Shown in pieces: positions 12,745-61,252 of a stretch of DNA of 64,000 bases (its first letter is position 1; each line of letters starts with the position of its first letter). Under the pieces are notes generated by a model. The model made no database searches and had not been told where the DNA came from. It saw nothing but the letters and a program-made list of their open reading frames with translations. Source of the DNA: Eledone cirrhosa (taxonomy: Eukaryota); the NCBI GenBank assembly GCA_964016885.1, contig OZ024758.1, forward strand, positions 13,888,001 to 13,952,000. The letters run 5' to 3'. A program made the position numbers and the translations under genes.

Positions 12745-13711
12745 GTAAGTAGATTTATGTTTATACAGAAATGACCTATAGATATTTCCCTCTCCTCTCC
12801 TTACAATTTATTACTAATTCAGATTGTTGTCTTTCAGCCCCCAACAACTATATCTTGTTTACTTTCATCATAAATTATTGTTGTATCAAATTAGAAATAG
12901 AAGCTTTTGGCTGATAATTGGGTTTGGAACCCTCTAAGAAATGGAAAAAGATGAGTATTGACGTACATCTTTTTCCATTTCTAAGTATTAAAGTACAGGC
13001 ATGTCAATACTCATCTTTTTCCATTTCTTATTGTGGTTTAGAACCCACTATCAGGCTAAAATTTCTTTAGTCAAAAATACGGCAAAGGCTTCTAATTCTA
13101 ATTTCAAACTCGCTCGCTGTTTCAAAACAAACTTACTTATTGTCATAGTATTTACTATAAAATAAAAAGGATTTTTATTTTTATTCACCATTCCTAGTTA
13201 AGGAATGAACCAAGGAAAGATCTTGTATGAAGTCGTTTAAGGTGCAAGATGGCCAGCATTGTCAAGCATTTTATCAGCTTTTAAAATATGTCCTACACAT
13301 TTTATAAAGGTTAAGAATTTGTATCCAGCGACTTGTAATGAATCATGTTCATCTATAGCTAAACACCCCTTAACAGTAAATGGTTGAGTCCATTCTTAAT
13401 AAGAACTACAGGTGGTATATTTCACTATTTTAGGCAACAGCTGCACTGTAAACAACAATGAATATTTCATTGTCTTAGTACAGTATTCAGTTCCTCCCAT
13501 AGGAAACTAATAAATAAATATTTTAGTCAAACGAAGACGATTTACTGTCTTTCATGAACTTACTACTAGAGAAAACTGAATATAAGTATGACTGCCATGG
13601 ATTCTCATGTTTGGAAAGTGCTAGCTTTATATTGGGTTGGTTCTTTATAAGGGTCAGCTGAAAAGTTCATAGGATTGATAAACAGCCAAATTCTGACCAA
13701 ATTTTATGGGT

Positions 13712-16540: not shown

Positions 16541-16881
16541 GGAGGCACATGGCTTAGTGGTTAGAGCATTGGCCTTGCAATCCAAAGATTGTGAGTTCAA
16601 TCCTCAGACCGGGTGATGTGTTGTTTCCTTGAGCAAGACACTTTATTTCACATTGCTCCAGTTTACTCAGCTGTAGAAATGAGATGATAGGACTGGGGTC
16701 CCTATCGTTCCACTGTAAAGTGGTCGTGGAGGTGCCACAGCAAAAAAAGCACCCAGCACTCACTGTAAATGAGGTTGGTGTTAGGAAGGGCATCCAGCTG
16801 TAGAAATCAAGCCAGAATCAGTTCCCGTCCCACCCTTGCAAGCAGGGAAAAGCGGACGTAAAATGATGATGATGATGATGA
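16541..16881 (+). mobile_element. Composite CORE-type tRNA SINE with GGAAGGGCATCCAGCTGTAGAAA tail ending in (GAT)n
   Basis: GGAGGCACATGGCTTAGTGG A-box, GAGTTCAATCC B-box and CCTTGAGCAAGACACTTTA CORE-like segment. Near-identical copies at 20540, 41733 and 61253 (-). Confidence 0.9.
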
Positions 16882-17281: not shown

Positions 17282-17312
<31 letters not shown>

Positions 17313-17316
<4 letters not shown>

Positions 17317-17693
17317 ATATTAATGAATGGAAACTATATTTATAGAACCATAATTATTTTATTATATATATTTCAAGGGCAACCAAGGCAATTTTGGTGC
17401 GCTTTCATCAAATAAAATACAAAAATACACTATCCAGCGAACCTTCAACCGTCAAGGTTGTTTTTCTACGGGTATGTCAACATTTATAAAACATATTTTG
17501 TATTTTATCTGATGAAAGCGCACCAAAATTGCCTTGGTTGCCCTTGAAATATATATAATATAATTATGGTTTTATAAATATAGTTTCCATTTATTAATAT
17601 ATTGAATATTTACTCCAGTTTAGCTGTTGAGTGCTTTATATCAGTTATAGAACTTTTAAGCTTGTTGAATCCCAACAAATTAAATATAACTTC

Positions 17694-19280: not shown

Positions 19281-19401
19281 GGAGGTGAGTTTTATTGTAG
19301 TACAATAAAGCAATGCAGATATCGGATAAGAAGCACTCTACAGTTTGTAGGACTGGAGTATACATAATATAAGATCAAAAGATGGTTAAAGGAGTTCCAT
19401 G

Positions 19402-19472
19402 TATTTTATTATGCGCATTTCAAAAACAAACATCATCAAACAATAATATTTGTGTTTTCATCAGATAAAACA
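19402..19472 (-). ncRNA. Minimal type I hammerhead motif (family D, minus-strand arm)
   Basis: UGUUUUAU-CUGAUGA-stem II-GAAA-UGCGCA-UA-AUAAAAUA. Confidence 0.8.
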
Positions 19473-19578
19473 GAACATGATATGAAGGCTAAAAAACACT
19501 TGTTGATAGTGCAGTTGATATGTTGATTTAAAACTGCACTATCAACAAGTGTTTTTTAGCCTTCATATCATGTTCTCC

Positions 19579-19649
19579 TGTTTTATCTGATGAAAACACA
19601 AATATTATTGTTTGATGATGTTTGTTTTTGAAATGCGCATAATAAAATA
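19579..19649 (+). ncRNA. Minimal type I hammerhead motif (family D, plus-strand arm)
   Basis: CUGAUGA 19587-19593, GAAA 19630-19633, palindrome UGCGCA, predicted cleavage after A19641, 8-bp stem I. Confidence 0.8.
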
Positions 19650-19708
19650 TATGGAACTCCTTTAACCATCTTTTGATCTTATATTATATATATATATATA
19701 TATATATA

Positions 19709-20062: not shown

Positions 20063-20069
<7 letters not shown>

Positions 20070-20488
20070 AAAAAGGGATGAAATCGAAAATGCAACTGAA
20101 GTCTTATTTTTTTTTTAAATATATATATTTATTTGGTTCCTTTACCGGTTTCGCAGTTCTTCTGCTTTTCAAAAGGTGAGTTGAGTATTGACAAACCAAT
20201 CAAATTACTTCTCGAAAAACCTGGAATTTCGAGCCACTTTTTCCATATAAAACAAGTAACATTCAGAGACCAACCAGATGTGAGAAAAACCACAGATCCT
20301 CCATCTCAACTCACCTTTTGAAAAGCAGAAGAACTGCGAAACCGGTAAAGGAACCAAATAAATATATATATTTTTTTAAAAAATAAGACTTCAGTTGCAT
20401 TTTCGATTTCATCCCTTTTTCTTTATACTTCCACTCATGTAGGACACCTCGGTTATTTTTCATTTTGTAAAAAAAACCTCACTTTCTA

Positions 20489-22191: not shown

Positions 22192-22982
22192 TCTGGAGAA
22201 ACAAGGAGGTGTATGGTTACTTGATTAAGTGTATTTAGAAATAAGAGGAAAGCATGTATATATCTGTGTGTGTGAGTGTATACATAAATAAACAAAGTTT
22301 TGCTGCAAAAAAATGCAAATGTCCAAATTTCTGAATCCATTCCACCCATGTAAGAATGTGTATGTGTATGCATATGTGTGCATATGTATGTATATGTGTG
22401 CATATATGTGCATGTGTGTCCATATATATGTATATGTGTGCATATATATGCATATGTGTCCATATGTATGCATGTGTGTATGTGGGGGGGGGGGCATCAG
22501 TAATGAATGATAAATAAATTAATTTAATATTTTCAAAAGAAATATAACAAAAAAAAAATACAAAAATAAAAAATTGATAAAAGACAAAATAATTTTTTTT
22601 TTTTCAAATTACAATTTTAAAATATAAATTTTTCTATTCTTTTTTTTTTTTAAGTAGTTTTGGTTTTTTTAAATATATTTGACCCCCTAACAAACAATTT
22701 TATCACTTTGTTTCATGTTGCTGGTAATATTGTTTATAGAAGAGTGTCTGGGTTGCTACTCTGGTAATTTCATGTAAATTAGTTTTGTTGCATGCTGCAA
22801 GGAACAGATTAAGCTAGTAGTAGTGGTAGTGGTAGTAGTAGTAGTAGTAGTAGTAGTGATAATGATAATAATAGTAATAATAAAAGTAGTAGTAATAATT
22901 CCATTAGCCACACAGGGCTCACATTAAGGAAACATTAAAGACAGTACAGGACGATACACTGTGGGGGGGGGGGGGGGGCACC

Positions 22983-23024
<42 letters not shown>

Positions 23025-23030
<6 letters not shown>

Positions 23031-23296
23031 ATTATGTAATAAACAACATAAGGCAATTATTCCATTTACCAGTGGTTTCTTAAAAGCAAAAGGTTTTGCT
23101 TTCAATCCTCAGAATGAAAAAATCCTGGTTTGTTTCATTCTGAGGATTGAAAGCAAAACCTTTTGCTTTTAAGAAACCACTGGTAAATGGAATAATTGCC
23201 TTATGTTGTTTATTACATAATAATAATAATTAAGCTCTGTTGCTTACATAGAGCACTCTTTTTTCCTGGACTTTTCCGATGGAATTACTTCATTCA
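23025..23296 (+). mobile_element. Penelope-like fold-back insert, family G, in (TA)n
   Basis: Perfect 95-bp arms 23025-23119 and 23133-23227, a 13-nt loop and a ~70-bp tail. Confidence 0.85.
23130..23195 (+). ncRNA. Type I hammerhead ribozyme motif (family G), fully intact
   Basis: UUGUUUCAUU-CUGAGGA-UUGAAAGCAAAA-cc-UUUUGCUUUUAA-GAAA-CCACUGG-UA-AAUGGAAUAA. GUA triplet with predicted cleavage after 23185; antisense copy at about 23060-23119. Confidence 0.85.
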
Positions 23297-23324
23297 TACA
23301 TATATACACACATATATATATATG

Positions 23325-23600
23325 CCATGATATTAAATAAATGGAAACTATATTTATAAAACCATATTTATTTTAGTATATATATTTCAAGGGTAACCAA
23401 GACAACATTGGTGCGCTTTCATCAGATAAAATACAAAGTTTGTTTTATAAATAGAGACATACCCATGAAAATTCTACCTTATCGGTTGGAAATTCACTGG
23501 ATAGTAATATCATGGAATATTTACTCCAGTAACTGTTGAGTGCTCTAAATCAGTTATAAACATTTGTTTGTCGGACTTCCAACAAATTAAATACAACTTC
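23325..23600 (+). mobile_element. Second family C insert (5'-inverted 23325-23505, direct tail 23506-23600) with HHR on the minus strand at 23369-23433
   Basis: Homologous to 17313-17698. Minus strand reads UAUUUUAU-CUGAUGA-AAGCGCACCAA...UUGGUUACCCUU-GAAA-UAUAUA-UA-CUAAAAUA. Confidence 0.75.
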
Positions 23601-23620
23601 TATATATATATATATATATA

Positions 23621-23726
23621 CATTGGATGTCCCCTTCTAAAAAAATGTATACTCACTTCAACACCATTATAACAAATATTGCCTGTACAGGTAATCAAAA
23701 TGTGTATACATTTTTTGGGGACACCC

Positions 23727-23730
<4 letters not shown>
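23621..23730. mobile_element. Small mariner-like MITE
   Basis: TIRs ...GGATGTCCCC..AAAAAATGTATAC / GTATACATTTTTTGGGGACACCC. Confidence 0.6.
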
Positions 23731-23789: not shown

Positions 23790-24008
23790 TGGCTCTTGGC
23801 TTCAGTGGTTAGAGAATTGGATTCGCAATCGTGAGGTTGTGAGTTTGATTTCCTGACCAGGTGATGTGTTATGTCCTTGAGCAAGACACTTTATTTCACG
23901 TTGCTCCTTCTACCTGGAGTTGCAACTGATAGATAGTATTAGCAATTGGGAAGACTAATGGAAACATTGTTTCCTCGGTCCAATCTGACGAAAGTTGCTC
24001 GAATGTCG

Positions 24009-24476: not shown

Positions 24477-24812
24477 GGGCAGTGGATTGGCAGTATCGGT
24501 AGAGGGCCAGACGCCATGCTTTCCAGCATAGTTACGTCCCTTTACGATCTGAGTTCAAATCCCGCCGAGGTTAACTTTGCCTTTCATTCTTATGGGGTCG
24601 ATAAAATAAAGTACCAGTAATGTACTGGTCGGTGGATTGGCAGTATCGGTAGAGGGTCGGACGCCATGCTTTCCAGCATAGTTACGTCCCTTTACGATCT
24701 GAGTTCAAATCCCGCCGAGGTTAACTTTGCCTTTCATTCTTACGGGGGTCGATAAAATAAAGTACCAGTAAGGCACTCGGTAATTGCTGGCCTTGTGCCT
24801 AAAATAGAAACA
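24477..24812 (+). mobile_element. Family M SINE, partial head-to-tail dimer
   Basis: GTGGATTGGCAGTATCGGTAGAG heads at about 24482 and 24632. Confidence 0.85.
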
Positions 24813-26747
24813 ATTATTATTATTATTATTGTTTATATATATATGTTCCTGTCTTTTTTTTTCTTTTCTTATATAAATAATTGTTTCTACTTTAGGCACA
24901 AGGCCAGCAATTACCCAGTGCATTACTGGTACTTTATTTTATCGACCCCGTCTTATATAAATAATAAAAATCTTTACATGCACAAAACCCACATCGTACC
25001 GTCTCTAATGTTTTTCTTGATGTCAGCCCTTGTGGCCAATAAAGAAATCATTATTATTATTATTATTATTATTATTGTTATTTTTTACATAAACAGTGAA
25101 ATGAATTTTTAATATAGAATTATATCGATCCCTTAGTTGAGATTTGTGAACAATGGCCTGGTTCTGGGGGGTAGCATTGCCAGAGGTATTCTGTTTAGTG
25201 CTGTGTATGTGGCTGTGTGTGTGGCTGTGTGGATGTGTGTGTGGGTATATGTATGTGTATGTATGTGTGTGTGTGGATGTGTGGGTGGGTGTATGTATGT
25301 GTGTGTGTGGATGTGTGTGTGGGTATATGTGTGGATGTGTGGGTGGGTGTGTGTGTGTGGATGGATGTGTGTGTGTCTGTGTGGATGTGTGTGTGGGTGT
25401 ATGTATGTATATGTATGTGTGTGTGTGGATGTGTGGGTGGGTGTATGTGTGTCTGTGTGGATGTGTGGATGTGTGTATGGGTATATATGTGTATGTGTGT
25501 GTGGATGTGTGGGTGGGTGTATGGATATGTGTGGATGTGTTTGTGGTGTGTGTCTGTGGATGTGTGGGTGGGTGTGGATGGATGTGTGTGTGTGGGTATA
25601 TGTATGTGTATGTATGTATATGTGGATGTATGTGTGAATGTATGTGGGTGTGTGTGTGTGTGGATGGATGTGTGTGTGTCTGTGTGGATGGGTATATGTA
25701 TGTGTATGTGTGTGTGTGTGTGGATGGATGTGTGTGTGTCTGTGTGGGTGTGGGTATGTGTATGTGTGTGTGTGTGGATGTGAGTGTGTGTGTGTGTGTG
25801 TGTGTGGATGGATGTGTGTGGATGTGTGTGTATGTATATGTGTGTTTTCACTAGGAATGTATAAAAATGTAATTCTAACTCTCTTACACCCCCCTGAAGA
25901 TAGATTTTATTTTCCTTTATTTTTTTTGCGCGTGTCTTTTTCTTTGGTTTAGAGTGACTCCCTCTTCCTCATTACCATTAGGCTACAATTGTGGAATACC
26001 TCCCGTATAAAGGAAACATTTCTGTTTACATTCTTAATTGATATACATTATCCATTATCTGCACTTCTCTTCTCTTTTTCTGTGCAGCGGGGTGGGTGGG
26101 ATGGGGGGTAGGAATGAAGAACTGGGGCGGAGGGGGGACCAAATCAAAACAAAACAATAAAAAAACATTGAAAATAATAATAATTTCAAACTTTATATTT
26201 GGGGGAATAAGAGGGTTGATAGATTAGTGGGTTAAAATAATAATAATAATAATAATAATAATAATTTTGTAAATCTTTCACCAGATTTCTTGTCTATGTT
26301 TTGCATTTTTTTTTTTTTTTTGTTTGGTTTCGTGGATGTCTTTCTTTCTTTCTTTCTTTCTTTCTGATAGAGTATTGATTTTATTGTTGCTACAATAAAG
26401 GTAGTGGTGGGGGTGGGGGGTTGAGGGGGTTTTGAAACAACAACAATAAAAACATATTTCTTCCTTCTTCCCCCCTCCCTATCTCTCTCACTTGTTACTT
26501 CTGAAGGGACAACAACAACAACAACAACAACAATCAAACCGTATTTCTTCTTCCTCCCTTCCTATCTCTCTCGCTTCATGCTCTGAAAAAGGCAACAAGC
26601 AACAACTGGTGCCATCCATGGCAGCTGTTACAGTCTTATTTCCTAAATTCTAGCCTCCTTCCTTCCTTCTCTTTAAATGGAGGATTCTCTGATTCTGTCG
26701 ACTTCTCAATCAAATAATATTTTTCAGCTTTCTCACTGGCACCCTTC

Positions 26748-28306: not shown

Positions 28307-28469
28307 AGAGGCTGTATGTATGCGGCTGTGTGTGTATGTAAGGCTATATGCGTGAGGCTATGTGTGTGTATGCAGCTGTATGTGTATGAGGCTCTATGTG
28401 TGTAGTGTATGAGGCTATGTGTGTGAATGCAGCTGTATGTGTCTGAGGCTGTGTGTGTGTGTATAAGGC

Positions 28470-30487
28470 TCTTCCATACTACTGCTATATCTATATTTAC
28501 ACTAATGCTCTTCCATACTACTGCTATATCTATATTTACACTGATGCTCTTCCATACTACTGCTATATCTATATTTACACTAATGCCCTTCCATACTACT
28601 GCTATATCTATATTTACACTAATACTCTTCCATACTACTGCTATATCTATATTTACACTAATGCCCTTCCATACTACTGCTATATCTATATTTACACTAA
28701 TGCCCTTCCATACTACTGCTATATCTATATTTACACTAATGCCCTTCCATACTACTGCTATATCTATATTTACACTAATACTCTTCCATACTACTGCTAT
28801 ATCTATATTTACACTAATGCCCTTCCATACTACTGCTATATCTATATTTACACTAATACTCTTCCATACTACTGCTATGTCTATATTTACACTAATGCCC
28901 TTCCATACTACTGCTATGTCTATATTTACACTGATGCTCTTCCATACTACTGCTATGTCTATATTTACACTAATGCCCTTCCATACTACTGCTATATCTA
29001 TATTTACACTAATGCCCTTCCATACTACTGCTATATCTATATTTACACTAATACTCTTCCATACTACTGCTATATCTATATTTACACTGATGCTCTTCCA
29101 TACTACTGCTATATCTATATTTACACTGATGCTCTTCCATACTACTGCTATGTCTATATTTACACTAATGCCCTTCCATACTACTGCTATATCTATATTT
29201 ACACTAATGCCCTTCCATACTACTGCTATATCTATATTTACACTAATACTCTTCCATACTACTGCTATATCTATATTTACACTAATGCCCTTCCATACTA
29301 CTGCTATATCTATATTTACACTAATGCCCTTCCATACTACTGCTATATCTATATTTACACTAATGCCCTTCCATACTACTGCTATATCTATATTTACACT
29401 AATACTCTTCCATACTACTGCTATATCTATATTTACACTAATGCCCTTCCATACTACTGCTATATCTATATTTACACTAATACTCTTCCATACTACTGCT
29501 ATGTCTATATTTACACTAATGCCCTTCCATACTACTGCTATGTCTATATTTACACTGATGCTCTTCCATACTACTGCTATGTCTATATTTACACTAATGC
29601 CCTTCCATACTACTGCTATATCTATATTTACACTAATGCCCTTCCATACTACTGCTATATCTATATTTACACTAATACTCTTCCATACTACTGCTATATC
29701 TATATTTACACTGATGCTCTTCCATACTACTGCTATATCTATATTTACACTGATGCTCTTCCATACTACTGCTATGTCTATATTTACACTAATGCCCTTC
29801 CATACTACTGCTATGTCTATATTTACACTAATGCCCTTCCATACTACTGCTATATCTATATTTACACTGATGCTCTTCCATACTACTGCTATATCTATAT
29901 TTACACTGATGCTCTTCCATACTACTGCTATGTCTATATTTACACTAATGCCCTTCCATACTACTGCTATATCTATATTTACACTAATGCCCTTCCATAC
30001 TACTGCTATATCTATATTTACACTAATGCCCTTCCATACTACTGCTATATCTATATTTACACTAATGCTCTTCCATACTACTGCTATATCTATATTTACA
30101 CTAATGCCCTTCCATACTACTGCTATATCTATATTTACACTAATGTTCTTCCAAACTACTGCTATATCTATATTTACACTAATGCCCTTCCATACTACTG
30201 CTATATCTATATTTACACTAATGCCCTTCCATACTACTGCTATATCTATATTTACACTGATGCTCTTCCATACTACTGCTATATCTATATTTACACTAAT
30301 GCCCTTCCATACTACTGCTATATCTATATTTACACTAATGTTCTTCCAAACTACTGCTATATCTATATTTACACTAATGCCCTTCCATACTACTGCTATA
30401 TCTATATTTACACTAATGCTCTTCCATACTACTGCTATATCTATATTTACACTAATGCCCTTCCATACTACTGCTATATCTATATTT
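28470..30487. repeat. 39-bp minisatellite, about 52 copies, with higher-order structure
   Basis: Unit CTTCCATACTACTGCTATATCTATATTTACACTAATGCC. Confidence 0.97.
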
Positions 30488-30584
30488 GATATCTTAAACA
30501 ACTCTTACTTTCGAAACCAATTTACAAGTCTACCTTTATGTAGTGTTTGTTTATCACACCTTACTTTGCTACTTATAATGTCTC

Positions 30585-33500
30585 TACATGTATATGTGTG
30601 TGTATACATGCATGTGTGTGTGTATATGTGTGTGTATATATGTATACATGTATGTGTGTGTATACATGCATGTGTGTATATGTGTGTGTACATCCATGCA
30701 TGTGTGTATGTGTGTGTACATCCATGTGTGTGTACATACATGCATGTGTGTATATGTGTGTGTATATCCATGTGTGTGTACATACATGCATGTGTGTATA
30801 TGTGTGTGTACATCCATGTGTGTGTACATACATGCATGTGTGTATATGTGTGTGTACATCCATGTGTGTGTACATACATGCATGTGTGTATATGTGTATA
30901 CATGCATGTGTGTGTATATCTGTGTGTACATGTGTGTGTACATACATACATGTGTGTATATGTGTGTGTATATATGTGTACATGTATGTGTACATACATG
31001 CATGTGTGTATATGTGTGTGTACATCCATGTGTACATGTATGTGTACATACATACATGCATGTGTGTATGTGTGTGTGTAAATCCATGTGTGTATATCTG
31101 TACATGTATGTGTACATACATGCATGTGTGTATATGTGTGTGTATATCTGTGTACATACATGCATGTGTGTGTGTATATGTGTGTACATCCATGTGTGTG
31201 TATATCTGTGTGTACATGTATGTGTACATACATGCATGCATGTGTGTGTGTGTGTACATGCATGTGTGTGTGTGTGTACATATATATACATGTGTGTACA
31301 TATGTATTCCATGCATGTGTTGTGCTGTGTGTACATGCATGTGGGTGTATATGTGTGTGTACATCCATGTGTGTGTATATCTGTGTGTACATATCTGTGT
31401 GTACATGTATGTGTACATACATGCATGCATGTGTGTGTGTGTGTACATGCATGTGGGTGTATATGTGTGTGTACATCTATATACATGTGTGTACATATGT
31501 ATTCCATGCGTGTGTTGTGCTGTGTGTACATGCATGTGGGTGTATATGTGTGTGTGTGTACATCTATATACATGTGTGTACATATGTATTCCATGCATGT
31601 GTTGTGCTGTGTGTACATGCATGTGGGTGTATATGTGTGTGTGTACATCTATATACATGTGTGTACATATGTATTCCATGCGTGTGTTGTGCTGTGTGTA
31701 CATGCATGTGGGTGTATATGTGTGTGTGTGTACATCTATATACATGTGTGTACATATGTATTCCATGCATGTGTTGTGCTGTGTGTACATGCATGTGGGT
31801 GTATATGTGTGTGTGTACATCTATATACATGTGTGTACATATGTATTCCATGCGTGTGTTGTGTGTGTGTACATGCATGTGGGTGTATATGTGTGTGTGT
31901 GTACATCTATATACATGTGTGTACATATGTATTCCATGCGTGTGTTGTGCTGTGTGTACATGCATGTGGGTGTATATGTGTGTGTGTACATCTATATACA
32001 TGTGTGTACATATGTATTCCATGCATGTGTTGTGCTGTGTGTACATGCATGTGGGTGTATATGTGTGTGTGTACATCTATATACATGTGTGTACATATGT
32101 ATTCCATGCATGTGTTGTGCTGTGTGTACATGCATGTGGGTGTATATGTGTGTGTGTACATCTATATACATGTGTGTACATATGTATTCCATGCATGGGT
32201 TGTGCTGTGTGTACATGCATGTGGGTGTATATGTGTGTGTGTACATCTATATACATGTGTGTACATATGTATTCCATGCATGTGTTGTGCTGTGTGTACA
32301 TGCATGTGGGTGTATATGTGTGTGTGTACATCTATATACATGTGTGTACATATGTATTCCATGCATGGGTTGTGCTGTGTGTACATGCATGTGGGTGTAT
32401 ATGTGTGTGTGTACATCTATATACATGTGTGTACATATGTATTCCATGCGTGTGTTGTGCTGTGTGTACATGCATGTGGGTGTATATGTGTGTGTGTACA
32501 TCTATATACATGTGTGTACATATGTATTCCATGCATGTGTTGTGCTGTGTGTACATGCATGTGGGTGTATATGTGTGTGTGTACATATATATACATGTGT
32601 GTACATATGTATTCCATGCGTGTGTTGTGCTGTGTGTACATGCATGTGGGTGTATATGTGTGTGTGTACATCTATATACATGTGTGTACATATGTATTCC
32701 ATGCATGTGTTGTGCTGTGTGTACATGCATGTGGGTGTATATGTGTGTGTACATCCATGTGTGTGTATATCTGTGTGTACGTGTGTGTGTGTGTGTACAT
32801 GCATGTGGGTGTATATGTGTGTGTGTACATATATATACATGTGTGTACATATGTATTCCATGCATGTGTTGTGCTGTGTGTACATGCATGTGGGTGTATA
32901 TGTGTGTGTGTACATATATATACATGTGTGTACATATGTATTCCATGCGTGCGTTGTGCTGTGTGTACATGCATGTGGGTGTATATGTGTGTGTGTACAT
33001 CTATATACATGTGTGTACATATGTATTCCATGCGTGTGTTGTGCTGTGTGTACATGCATGTGGGTGTATATGTGTGTGTGTGTACATATATATACATGTG
33101 TGTACATATGTATTCCATGCGTGTGTTGTGCTGTGTGTACATGCATGTGGGTGTATATGTGTGTGTGTACATCTATATACATGTGTGTACATATGTATTC
33201 CATGCGTGTGTTGTGCTGTGTGTACATGCATGTGGGTGTATATGTGTGTGTGTACATATATATACATGTGTGTACATATGTATTCCATGCGTGTGTTGTG
33301 CTGTGTGTACATGCATGTGGGTGTATATGTGTGTGTGTACATCTATATACATGTGTGTACATATGTATTCCATGCATGGGTTGTGCTGTGTGTACATGCA
33401 TGTGGGTGTATATGTGTGTGTGTACATATATATACATGTGTGTACATATGTATTCCATGCGTGTGTTGTGTGTGTGTACATGCATGTGGGTGTATATGTG

Positions 33501-41732: not shown

Positions 41733-42060
41733 GGAGGCACATGGCTTAGTGGTTAGAGCATTGGCCTTGCAATCGAAAGGTTGTGAGTTCAATTCTCAGA
41801 CTGGGTGATGTGTTGTTTCCTTGAGCAAGACACTTTATTTCACATTGCTCCAGTTTACTCAGCTGTAGAAATGAGATGATAGGGACTGCAAAGTGGTCGT
41901 GGAGGTGCCACGGCAAAAAAAGCACCCAGCACTCACTGTAAATGAGGTTGGTGTTAGGAAGGGCATCCAACTGTAGAAATCAAGCCAGAATCAGTTCCCG
42001 TCCCACCCTTGCAAGCAGGGAAAAGTGGACGTGAAATGAAATGAATGAAATGAAATGAAT
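41733..42060 (+). mobile_element. Composite CORE-type SINE with (GAAAT)n tail
   Basis: Matches 16541-16881. Confidence 0.9.
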
Positions 42061-56144: not shown

Positions 56145-56360
56145 TGAAGGCGCATGGCTTAGTGGTTAGAGCATTGGGCTTGCAATCGAAAGGTTGCGAG
56201 TTCAATTCTCGCACCGGGTGATGTGTTGTTTCCTTGAGCAAGACACTTTATTTCACGTTGCTCCAGTTTACTCAGCTGTAGAAATGAGATGAAGAGGTAC
56301 CAGCCTGCCCACCCAGCCAGTGGGATGACGTTATCTTATGGCTAAAACAACATGACGTGC
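56145..56360 (+). mobile_element. CORE-type SINE
   Basis: GAAGGCGCATGGCTTAGTGG...GAGTTCAATTC...CCTTGAGCAAGACACTT. Confidence 0.85.
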
Positions 56361-56550: not shown

Positions 56551-56556
<6 letters not shown>

Positions 56557-57081
56557 TTCTTTAAGTCGTTTGGAAGCCTCGACATTGCAAATGGGTAAAT
56601 CTCCGGGTAACAAGATCCGGTGGTGGAGAGAGAGATGTAAGTGGGTGTACGTTGAGATGCGTGGCGTGTATAAGACGTGTAGAGGAATGAAGGAAAGAGG
56701 ATAAAATAAAAATAACAACACGAGAGAGAGTTACCTTGGGAGAGATTTAATTGTCCCTATATATTTCGGATTCACATCCATCAACTGGGGTTTTTTTCCG
56801 GGGTGGGGGAAAGGTTGTCTGTCGGAAAGGTGCTAAATGCGTCCTCCCAAGGTAACTCTCTCTTCTGTTGTTATTTTTATTTTATCCTTTATGCTCTTTC
56901 CTTCATTCCTCTACACGTTACAGTCTTATACACGCCATGCATCTCAACGTACACCCACTTACATCTCTCTCTCCACCACCGGATTTTACCCGGAGATTTA
57001 CCCATTTGCATTGTCGAGGCTTCCAAGCGACTTAAAGAAATTTATCTTATTATTCCACAATGCTTCAAGCAAACTTCAATA

Positions 57082-61057: not shown

Positions 61058-61252
61058 ATAGGAACGAGTAGGACCCCGACGGCTGAGCTCAAGACGTTTC
61101 GACGGCTAATTCTAGTCCAGAATTAGCCGTCGAAACGGCTTGAGCTCAGCCGTCGGGGTCCTACTCGTTCCTATTACCCACTCTACTACCCTAAGTATTG
61201 AGTACTTTGGTGCGTTATGGTCCACCTGGTTCCTTACCACATTTCCTTCATT
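61058..61252 (+). mobile_element. Penelope-like fold-back insert, family I, with 3' half-hammerhead
   Basis: 56-bp arms 61058-61113 and 61119-61174 (1 mismatch). GAAA-CGGCU-ugagcuc-AGCCG-UC-GGGGUCC; 78-bp tail. Confidence 0.75.

What the first reader, a model, noticed from the sequence alone, without database searches (positions are those of the whole stretch)
23025..23296. Youngest and best test candidate: perfect 95-bp arms and a complete hammerhead
The arms are 100% identical, implying recent insertion. The ribozyme has a 10-bp stem I, an 11-12-bp stem II, a CUGAGGA core and a 3-bp helix III (ACC-acu-GGU) that might allow monomeric cleavage after GUA (23185). The tail has a further small hairpin (GCTCTGT...ATAGAGC).
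Basis: partly seen in the sequence, partly recalled or inferred. Interest (0 to 1): 0.7.

Follow-up and report, generated by a model that had tools for sequence, protein, structure and literature searches.

The report
Mirror-image stub of Hydra-clade Penelope retrotransposon
This 273-base DNA palindrome is one of thousands of short head-to-head end pieces of a Penelope-type jumping gene; its hammerhead ribozyme motif is complete but predicted to be folded shut here, and the family's copies suggest that the RNA was likely copied uncut, from its capped start, from both ends of the broken chromosome.

Summary
In detail: two exact 96-bp arms, a 13-nt spacer, a full hammerhead core on each strand, and a one-sided tail. 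The element is a stub of an abundant Penelope-like element (at least 1,658 and 3,422 exact motif hits). Its autonomous partner has an intact 714-aa RT/GIY-YIG ORF with the Hydra-clade motifs. The tail is the start of its 5' UTR. This layout is published.

Corrections: 44 of 63 sampled arms are identical to this one, so it is not uniquely young. Three pairs of the 10-bp stem I come from the inversion junction. Helix III favours a dimer (-8.2 versus +0.4 kcal/mol). Read-through RNA is predicted to bury the ribozyme.

Family-wide, arms stop at a fixed site 91 nt upstream of the cut with an extra G (201 versus 20), which suggests a cap. They show no excess at the cut site. The tail is on one arm only (0 of 42 partners). 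This points to priming from both cut ends on uncleaved RNA. The scan reported this on other DNA of this genome; I retested it in this family. Ribozyme activity is untested.

The parts
22986..23023 (.). (TA)n microsatellite, left target flank
   Evidence: Sequence; family arms end in (TA)n at most loci shown
23024..23135 (-). Inverted copy of the element's end, without tail. Starts 69 nt upstream of the predicted cut site and ends in (AAT)n
23060..23119 (-). Hammerhead motif in native context (C3 at 23112; predicted cut after 23067; 7-bp stem I)
23120..23132 (-). 13-nt unpaired spacer: extra upstream sequence of the inverted arm, not an independent loop
   Evidence: Matches native upstream sequence of long copies on the - strand
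23133..23135 (.). 3-nt microhomology (TTT) at the head-to-head junction
   Evidence: tail arm starts at -53, partner at -69, overlap 3
23133..23228 (+). Direct copy of the element's end (pLTR part), identical to the left arm
23130..23195 (+). Type I hammerhead motif; core 23140-23146 and 23173-23176; predicted cut after 23185; outer 3 bp of stem I are junction-derived
23176..23184 (+). Helix III, an interrupted palindrome (ACCA-C-UGGU) predicted to pair between two RNAs
   Evidence: the same 4+1+4 design is listed for most Hydra-clade hammerheads in File S2 of PMC8557442
23229..23296 (+). One-sided tail of about 68 nt: start of the autonomous element's 5' UTR, with two small hairpins (23234-23254; about 23263-23284)
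   Evidence: In tandem copy L036 this sequence continues to the ORF start codon; folding
23297..23324 (.). (TA)/(CA) microsatellite, right target flank
   Evidence: Sequence

Best explanation
This is a non-coding head-to-head stub of a Hydra-clade Penelope-like retrotransposon, likely made when both ends of a cut (TA)n target primed reverse transcription near the 5' end of uncleaved element RNA and the two short cDNAs were joined through 3 nt of microhomology. SHOWN: both arms and the tail are the end of a 4,289-bp element with an RT plus GIY-YIG ORF; the tail is its 5' UTR start; the tail is on one arm only; family arms pile up at a site 91 nt upstream of the hammerhead cut site, often with an extra G; there is no pile-up at the cut site. 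INFERRED: the -91 site is a capped transcription start; the two arm ends (AAT run and tail end) are two internal RT start sites, as in the anole element studied in vitro; this copy's cDNAs stopped or were trimmed 22 and 38 nt short of the cap. PREDICTED: the hammerhead is a real dimer-type or protein-assisted ribozyme of the parent element, and in this copy it is inert because read-through RNA folds into the 96-bp hairpin and neither arm keeps the inferred start site.
For: Copy number: 1,658 and 3,422 exact hits, reversed controls 0. Partner: ORF of 714 residues without a stop between inverted ends in L035; tandem unit in L036. Model pLDDT 93.8, top 8 structure hits all telomerase RT, best E 6e-9. 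Hydra motifs conserved in 119 aligned relatives: RW 118, DKT 117/119/111, linker Cys 119, no row with two Cys between the GIY and YIG motifs (definition). Architecture: of 111 tail sites, 42 are short head-to-head, 43 long, 26 without a short partner; the partner has a tail in 0 of 42; tail arm longer in 4, partner longer in 16, within 5 nt in 22. 23 of 84 arm starts lie at -92 to -89. Extra G at that site 201, extra A 20, native 1,472; 29 of 30 inspected G cases are junctions. Cut-site starts 55 against 46 (+1) and 86 (-2), or 121, 93 and 129 after normalising. The spacer's orientation excludes tail-first fold-back for this copy, and fold-back from the other arm cannot supply the tail (sequence logic). 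PMC11167929 shows both-strand cleavage and extension, two RT start sites bounding the tail, and unprocessed RNA as main template.
Against: No RNA data: the cap, the start site and cleavage are inferred from DNA only. About 6 of the 30 inspected extra G's can be read as microhomology with the partner arm (by eye). A C control was impossible because one subfamily has C there. 22 of 42 stubs are near-symmetric, many centred on short palindromes, which self-priming also explains (PMC3846280). L060 and L061 look like duplicates, and L118 is a different structure. A few arms do start at the cut site (L057, L058). The cut-site count includes point changes (12 of 30 inspected) and the control sets were not inspected the same way. 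Cleaved RNA might exist but not be used as template. Clade assignment rests on motifs and a by-eye comparison, not on a tree with reference sequences.
Confidence: 0.75

Rival explanations
1. Same element, but the inversion arises by self-priming (fold-back) of one cDNA or of an antisense template, so the second arm is a copy of the first.
For: Proposed in PMC3846280 from junction palindromes. 22 of 42 stubs have arms within 5 nt of each other, several centred on ATAT, GATC or TTTTAAAA. Arms of one insertion usually share subfamily variants.
Against: Either arm can carry sequence the other lacks (4 versus 16, and the tail in 0 of 42 partners). In this copy the spacer belongs to the tail-less arm. 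The extra G fits a sense, capped template.
Confidence: 0.15
2. One reading: an active monomeric ribozyme that cleaves after 23185 in transcripts of this copy, or that routinely defines the template end.
For: All core nucleotides are present. In tail-selected loci 43 of 47 arms keep CUGANGA while position 7 varies. Subfamily changes keep pairing (stem I U-G 42 / U-A 36; stem II G-U 54 / G-C 24 of 80).
Against: Helix III is 4-10% paired as a monomer and about 1e-18 in read-through RNA. The stem II closing pair is U-A, and is mismatched in 21 of 80. No excess of arm starts at the cut site. Related PLE hammerheads cleave poorly alone or need protein.
Confidence: 0.07
3. An independent non-autonomous unit: a MITE with long terminal inverted repeats, a retrozyme, or a host hairpin RNA gene.
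For: Short, palindromic, high copy; weak microRNA-precursor scores in Rfam.
Against: The junction position varies from copy to copy and the spacing runs from tens of bases to kilobases. The arms are the end of an RT-coding element. There are no short tandem hammerhead repeats. All Rfam scores are below gathering thresholds.
Confidence: 0.03

Closest known systems
Hydra clade of Penelope-like elements (Craig et al. 2021, PMC8557442), nearest Hydra-1_Obim of Octopus bimaculoides
   Same: RWK, DKT, CxCx5C linker, CxxC and CxH, no CCHH, C-terminal GIY-YIG, (TA)n targets, hammerhead with 4+1+4 palindromic helix III (acca-a-tggt there, acca-c-tggt here). 61 of 98 residues identical over one RT block, counted by eye. 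Penelope-13_HM has an inverted copy with hammerheads on both strands.
   Different: Different hammerhead stems. The unit is 4,289 bp against 2,507 bp, because of a microsatellite-rich 3' UTR with a second hammerhead. Thousands of copies with clear pLTR and tandem forms, whereas Hydra-1_Obim is listed with no pLTR.
Insertion unit of EN+ Penelope-like elements: inverted 5'-truncated copy, pLTR, one-sided tail (PMC8557442, PMC3846280)
   Same: Head-to-head arms, asymmetric junction, microhomology, tail on one end only, partial tandems.
   Different: The tail is about 68 nt rather than 30-40. This copy is only the extreme stub. I found no paper in my searches describing the extra G at a fixed start.
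Poseidon element of Anolis carolinensis, PAc (PMC11167929)
   Same: The tail corresponds to sequence downstream of the pLTR; AT-rich targets; hammerhead near the pLTR-ORF junction; uncut RNA apparently used as template.
   Different: Different clade. In PAc the ORF starts inside the hammerhead, while here the start codon is 229 nt past the cut site. PAc was shown biochemically; this family is inferred from DNA.
Type I minimal or dimeric hammerheads of metazoan PLEs and non-LTR retrozymes (PMC4209133; bioRxiv 10.64898/2026.07.22.740005)
   Same: Type I core, long helix II, short palindromic helix III, variable base after A9.
   Different: No G10.1-C11.1 pair; not in short tandem repeats; not an independent non-autonomous unit.

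Membership tests
Hydra-clade PLE (partner element) | Single ORF with telomerase-like RT and C-terminal GIY-YIG endonuclease | tested here: met
   714-residue frame; top fold hits TERT; GIY-YIG-like Y..YxG..R motifs conserved in 119 of 119. Pfam itself gave no significant hit for P0001; GIY-YIG only in relative P0003
Hydra-clade PLE (partner element) | RWK and DKT motifs | tested here: met
   Positions 41 and 118 of P0001
Hydra-clade PLE (partner element) | CxCx5C linker; CxxC and CxH beside conserved E and N; CCHH absent | tested here: met
   Positions 559, 662, 683; 0 of 119 rows with two Cys between GIY and YIG
Hydra-clade PLE (partner element) | (TA)n insertion preference and canonical hammerhead | tested here: met
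Hydra-clade PLE (partner element) | Generally short (<3 kb); described as typical, not diagnostic | tested here: not met
   Tandem unit 4,289 bp in L036; the excess is 3' UTR microsatellite
Hydra-clade PLE (partner element) | Phylogenetic placement with reference Hydra RTs | not tested
   No tree built; by-eye comparison with supplement rows only
EN+ PLE insertion unit | Inverted truncated copy plus tail on one end only | tested here: met
   0 of 42 partners carry the tail
EN+ PLE insertion unit | Target-site duplication | tested here: inconclusive
   Both flanks are microsatellite
Type I hammerhead ribozyme | Conserved core CUGANGA, GAAA, UH with three helices | tested here: met
Type I hammerhead ribozyme | G10.1-C11.1 pair (highly conserved per PMC4209133) | tested here: not met
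   U-A in 59 of 80, mismatch in 21; several published Hydra hammerheads also lack it
Type I hammerhead ribozyme | Self-cleavage after H17 | not testable with these tools
   No assay; no RNA run listed
Type I hammerhead ribozyme | Loop I-loop II tertiary contact | not tested
   Not modelled
Non-LTR retrozyme | Short tandem repeats, each with a hammerhead, without coding partner in cis | tested here: not met
   Copies are head-to-head stubs or 3.6-4.3 kb tandems
MITE / DNA transposon | Fixed ends and fixed internal structure shared by copies | tested here: not met
   Junction varies from -109 to +39 among 42 stubs

The most novel reading that the evidence does not exclude
In this family the hammerhead's main job is not to cut the template. 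Its palindromic helix III would pair two capped element RNAs so that a dimeric RT-endonuclease copies both from the two ends of one break, which would explain head-to-head arms, the one-sided tail and the cap G on both arms in one mechanism. Against it: Naiad elements make the same inverted structures without canonical hammerheads, and the catalytic core is conserved as if cleavage mattered.
Probability: 0.07. Interest if true: 0.75.

Novelty: new member of a known kind. Interest (0 to 1): 0.3.

Why it matters
This copy itself is ordinary. The family is useful: it is young, has thousands of copies and at least one uninterrupted ORF, and its junctions record the template's 5' end. How Penelope-like elements build inverted ends and tails, and what their hammerheads do, are stated as open in PMC8557442 and PMC3846280. 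The genomic counts here favour priming from both cut ends on capped, uncut RNA, in line with the one in vitro study, and give exact positions (-91, the cut site, two arm ends) to test.

Tried and rejected
Rfam found no hammerhead; its microRNA scores only reflect the long hairpin. The DNA search of the genome with the 86-nt arm returned 0 because common words are skipped; patterns were used instead. Pfam and PDB sequence searches missed the partner protein. Sequencing runs: no RNA holder listed, which says nothing about expression. Contigs of X1-X4 did not cover the unique flanks, so presence/absence polymorphism was not tested. The first junction mapping over-extended through near-palindromes and mis-called this copy; it was replaced. 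My first guess from memory, Nematis or Neptune clade, was dropped after reading the Hydra definition. The hypothesis that arms begin at the ribozyme cut was tested and not supported. No ORF fragment of the partner lies in the window. Paper searches for the cap or twin-priming reading in Penelope elements and for octopus hammerheads listed nothing on point; subscription papers are not covered, and bioRxiv supplements were not seen.

Full report
Observation. The window holds two exact reverse-complement arms of 96 bp (23024-23119, 23133-23228) around a 13-nt spacer, flanked by (TA)n and followed on the right only by a tail of about 68 nt. The hairpin is far beyond chance (z = -26.4, 0 of 200 shuffles). 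Rfam does not detect it.

What it is. A 21-mer from the hammerhead has 1,658 exact matches in the genome and a 25-mer from the tail has 3,422; reversed controls have none. Many matches come as a - copy followed by a + copy, tens of bases to kilobases apart. Between widely spaced pairs lies an ORF. In L035 it runs 714 residues without a stop. In the tandem copy L036 the order is hammerhead, AAT run, tail, rest of 5' UTR, ORF, a second hammerhead, microsatellite-rich UTR, hammerhead, tail; the unit is 4,289 bp. The tail is therefore the start of the element's 5' UTR. The protein has 1,497 relatives at E<=1e-20 among 7,998 scored candidates. Its model (pLDDT 93.8) matches telomerase RTs best, although Pfam and PDB sequence searches missed it.

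Clade. Craig et al. 2021 (PMC8557442; I read passages, section 11 and parts of the supplement) define the Hydra clade by RWK, DKT, a CxCx5C linker, CxxC and CxH motifs, loss of CCHH, (TA)n targets and canonical hammerheads. All are met. Their File S2 lists Hydra hammerheads with the same 4+1+4 palindromic helix III, including Hydra-1_Obim from Octopus bimaculoides, and one family with an inverted copy attached. By eye, 61 of 98 residues of one RT block match Hydra-1_Obim. No tree was built. That the host is an octopod is my inference from this likeness and from earlier scan notes. The inverted copy with a one-sided tail is the published layout of these elements.

Age. Zero differences in 96 bp bound divergence only below 3.1%. 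Among 63 distinct arms picked by the 21-mer, 44 are identical to this one over 88 nt; that sample is biased to the young subfamily. Another window palindrome has 1 mismatch in 152. The insertion is probably recent, but 'youngest' cannot be shown.

The ribozyme. Conservation looks like that of a selected structure. In loci chosen by the tail, 43 of 47 arms keep CUGANGA while position 7 varies, and 36 of 47 keep the second core and helix III exactly. Among 80 distinct motifs, subfamily changes keep pairs (stem I U-G 42, U-A 36; stem II G-U 54, G-C 24); these are one-sided changes in related sequences, so they are modest evidence. The native stem I has a U.U mismatch at pair 8 in 74 of 80; the 10-pair stem in this copy arises because 23130-23132 come from the other arm. 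PMC4209133 (parts 1-2 of 4 read) found no cleavage by a single minimal PLE hammerhead and low cleavage by multimers. PMC11167929 (parts 1-2 of 4 read) found a PLE hammerhead that needs protein and is dispensable for insertion in vitro.

How the stub was made. I mapped 111 distinct tail sites (loci L001-L130 and the window): 42 short head-to-head, 43 long, 26 without a short partner. The partner arm has the tail in 0 of 42. The tail arm is longer in 4, the partner in 16, and 22 are within 5 nt. L118 is a different structure and L060/L061 look duplicated; both were left in the count. This copy has arms starting at -53 and -69 relative to the cut, with 3 nt of microhomology. Its spacer belongs to the tail-less arm, which simple fold-back cannot reconcile with the tail. 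23 of 84 arm starts lie at -92 to -89 and 6 at -109 to -105. Genome-wide, that first site is preceded by a non-native G 201 times and by A 20 times, against 1,472 native copies. Of 30 G cases inspected, 29 are junctions by my reading and about 6 could take the G from the partner arm. An untemplated 5' G is taken as a possible mark of cap reverse transcription in L1 work (PMC9341517, passages). Arm starts at the cut site show no excess: 55, against 46 at +1 and 86 at -2, or 121, 93 and 129 after normalising; 12 of 30 inspected cut-site cases were point changes. The simplest reading is that cDNAs ran through an uncut hammerhead to a capped start, from both ends of the break. This agrees with both-strand extension and two RT start sites shown for the anole element. 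Self-priming, proposed in PMC3846280 (passages), remains possible for the symmetric stubs. PMC11702581 (passages) describes L1 twin priming, which inverts rather than duplicates. The bioRxiv retrozyme paper was read in part 1 of 5 only.

Limits. No RNA run was listed and polymorphism could not be tested. Cap, start site, priming sites and ribozyme behaviour are inferred or predicted. My searches did not list a paper on the cap signature in these elements, but the library lacks most subscription journals.

Verdict. A real feature and a new family member of a known kind. The copy is ordinary and a poor stand-in for the native ribozyme. Earlier notes of this scan reached the same class on other DNA of this genome, and two of them gave me the cap lead; the counts above are my own test in this family. 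Interest 0.3.

Noticed in passing
L036:6004-6088 (-), L001:2912-2977 (-), L032:3460-3525 (+): Full-length copies carry a second hammerhead about 1.4-2 kb upstream of the terminal one. In the youngest subfamily it has G at the cleavage position and a weakened stem II, so it may be a relic of an older end; in others it keeps GUA and could be an in-cis dimer partner.
   Followed up: partly
window 23330-23600: A stub of a different hammerhead-bearing family sits directly in the right microsatellite flank; it is 83-91% like the palindrome at 17312-17605.
   Followed up: partly
window 12899-13066, 17312-17605, 19365-19686, 20065-20425, 24745-24949, 56553-57045, 61058-61174: Seven further palindromes of unrelated sequence, most beside (TA)n with a one-sided extension; hammerhead cores are visible in 17312 and 19365. 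Probably stubs of other Penelope-like families.
   Followed up: partly
L069, L072, L073, L080 junctions: A second cluster of arm starts at -109 to -105, some with a non-native G, suggests a second transcription start in older subfamilies.
   Followed up: no
L012:814 (-), L048:957 (-), L158: A related hammerhead with a much longer stem II and the same short helix III design belongs to another family.
   Followed up: no
L003:1484-1849: Two tailed copies lie tail-to-tail as a mirror image around a (TA)n run, unlike the usual head-to-head form; possibly a later inverted duplication.
   Followed up: no
window 16550-16607, 41740-41803, 56155-56212, about 23790-23860: tRNA-like matches lacking acceptor stems, probably heads of a tRNA-derived SINE.
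   Followed up: no
window 28312-30600: Tandem array of a 39-bp unit, about 50 copies at 95-99% identity.
   Followed up: no
window 22960-22987 and 23620-23730: Short ends reading CAGGGTG / GGGACACCC next to TA or GT runs resemble Tc1/mariner-type termini (label recalled, not tested).
   Followed up: no
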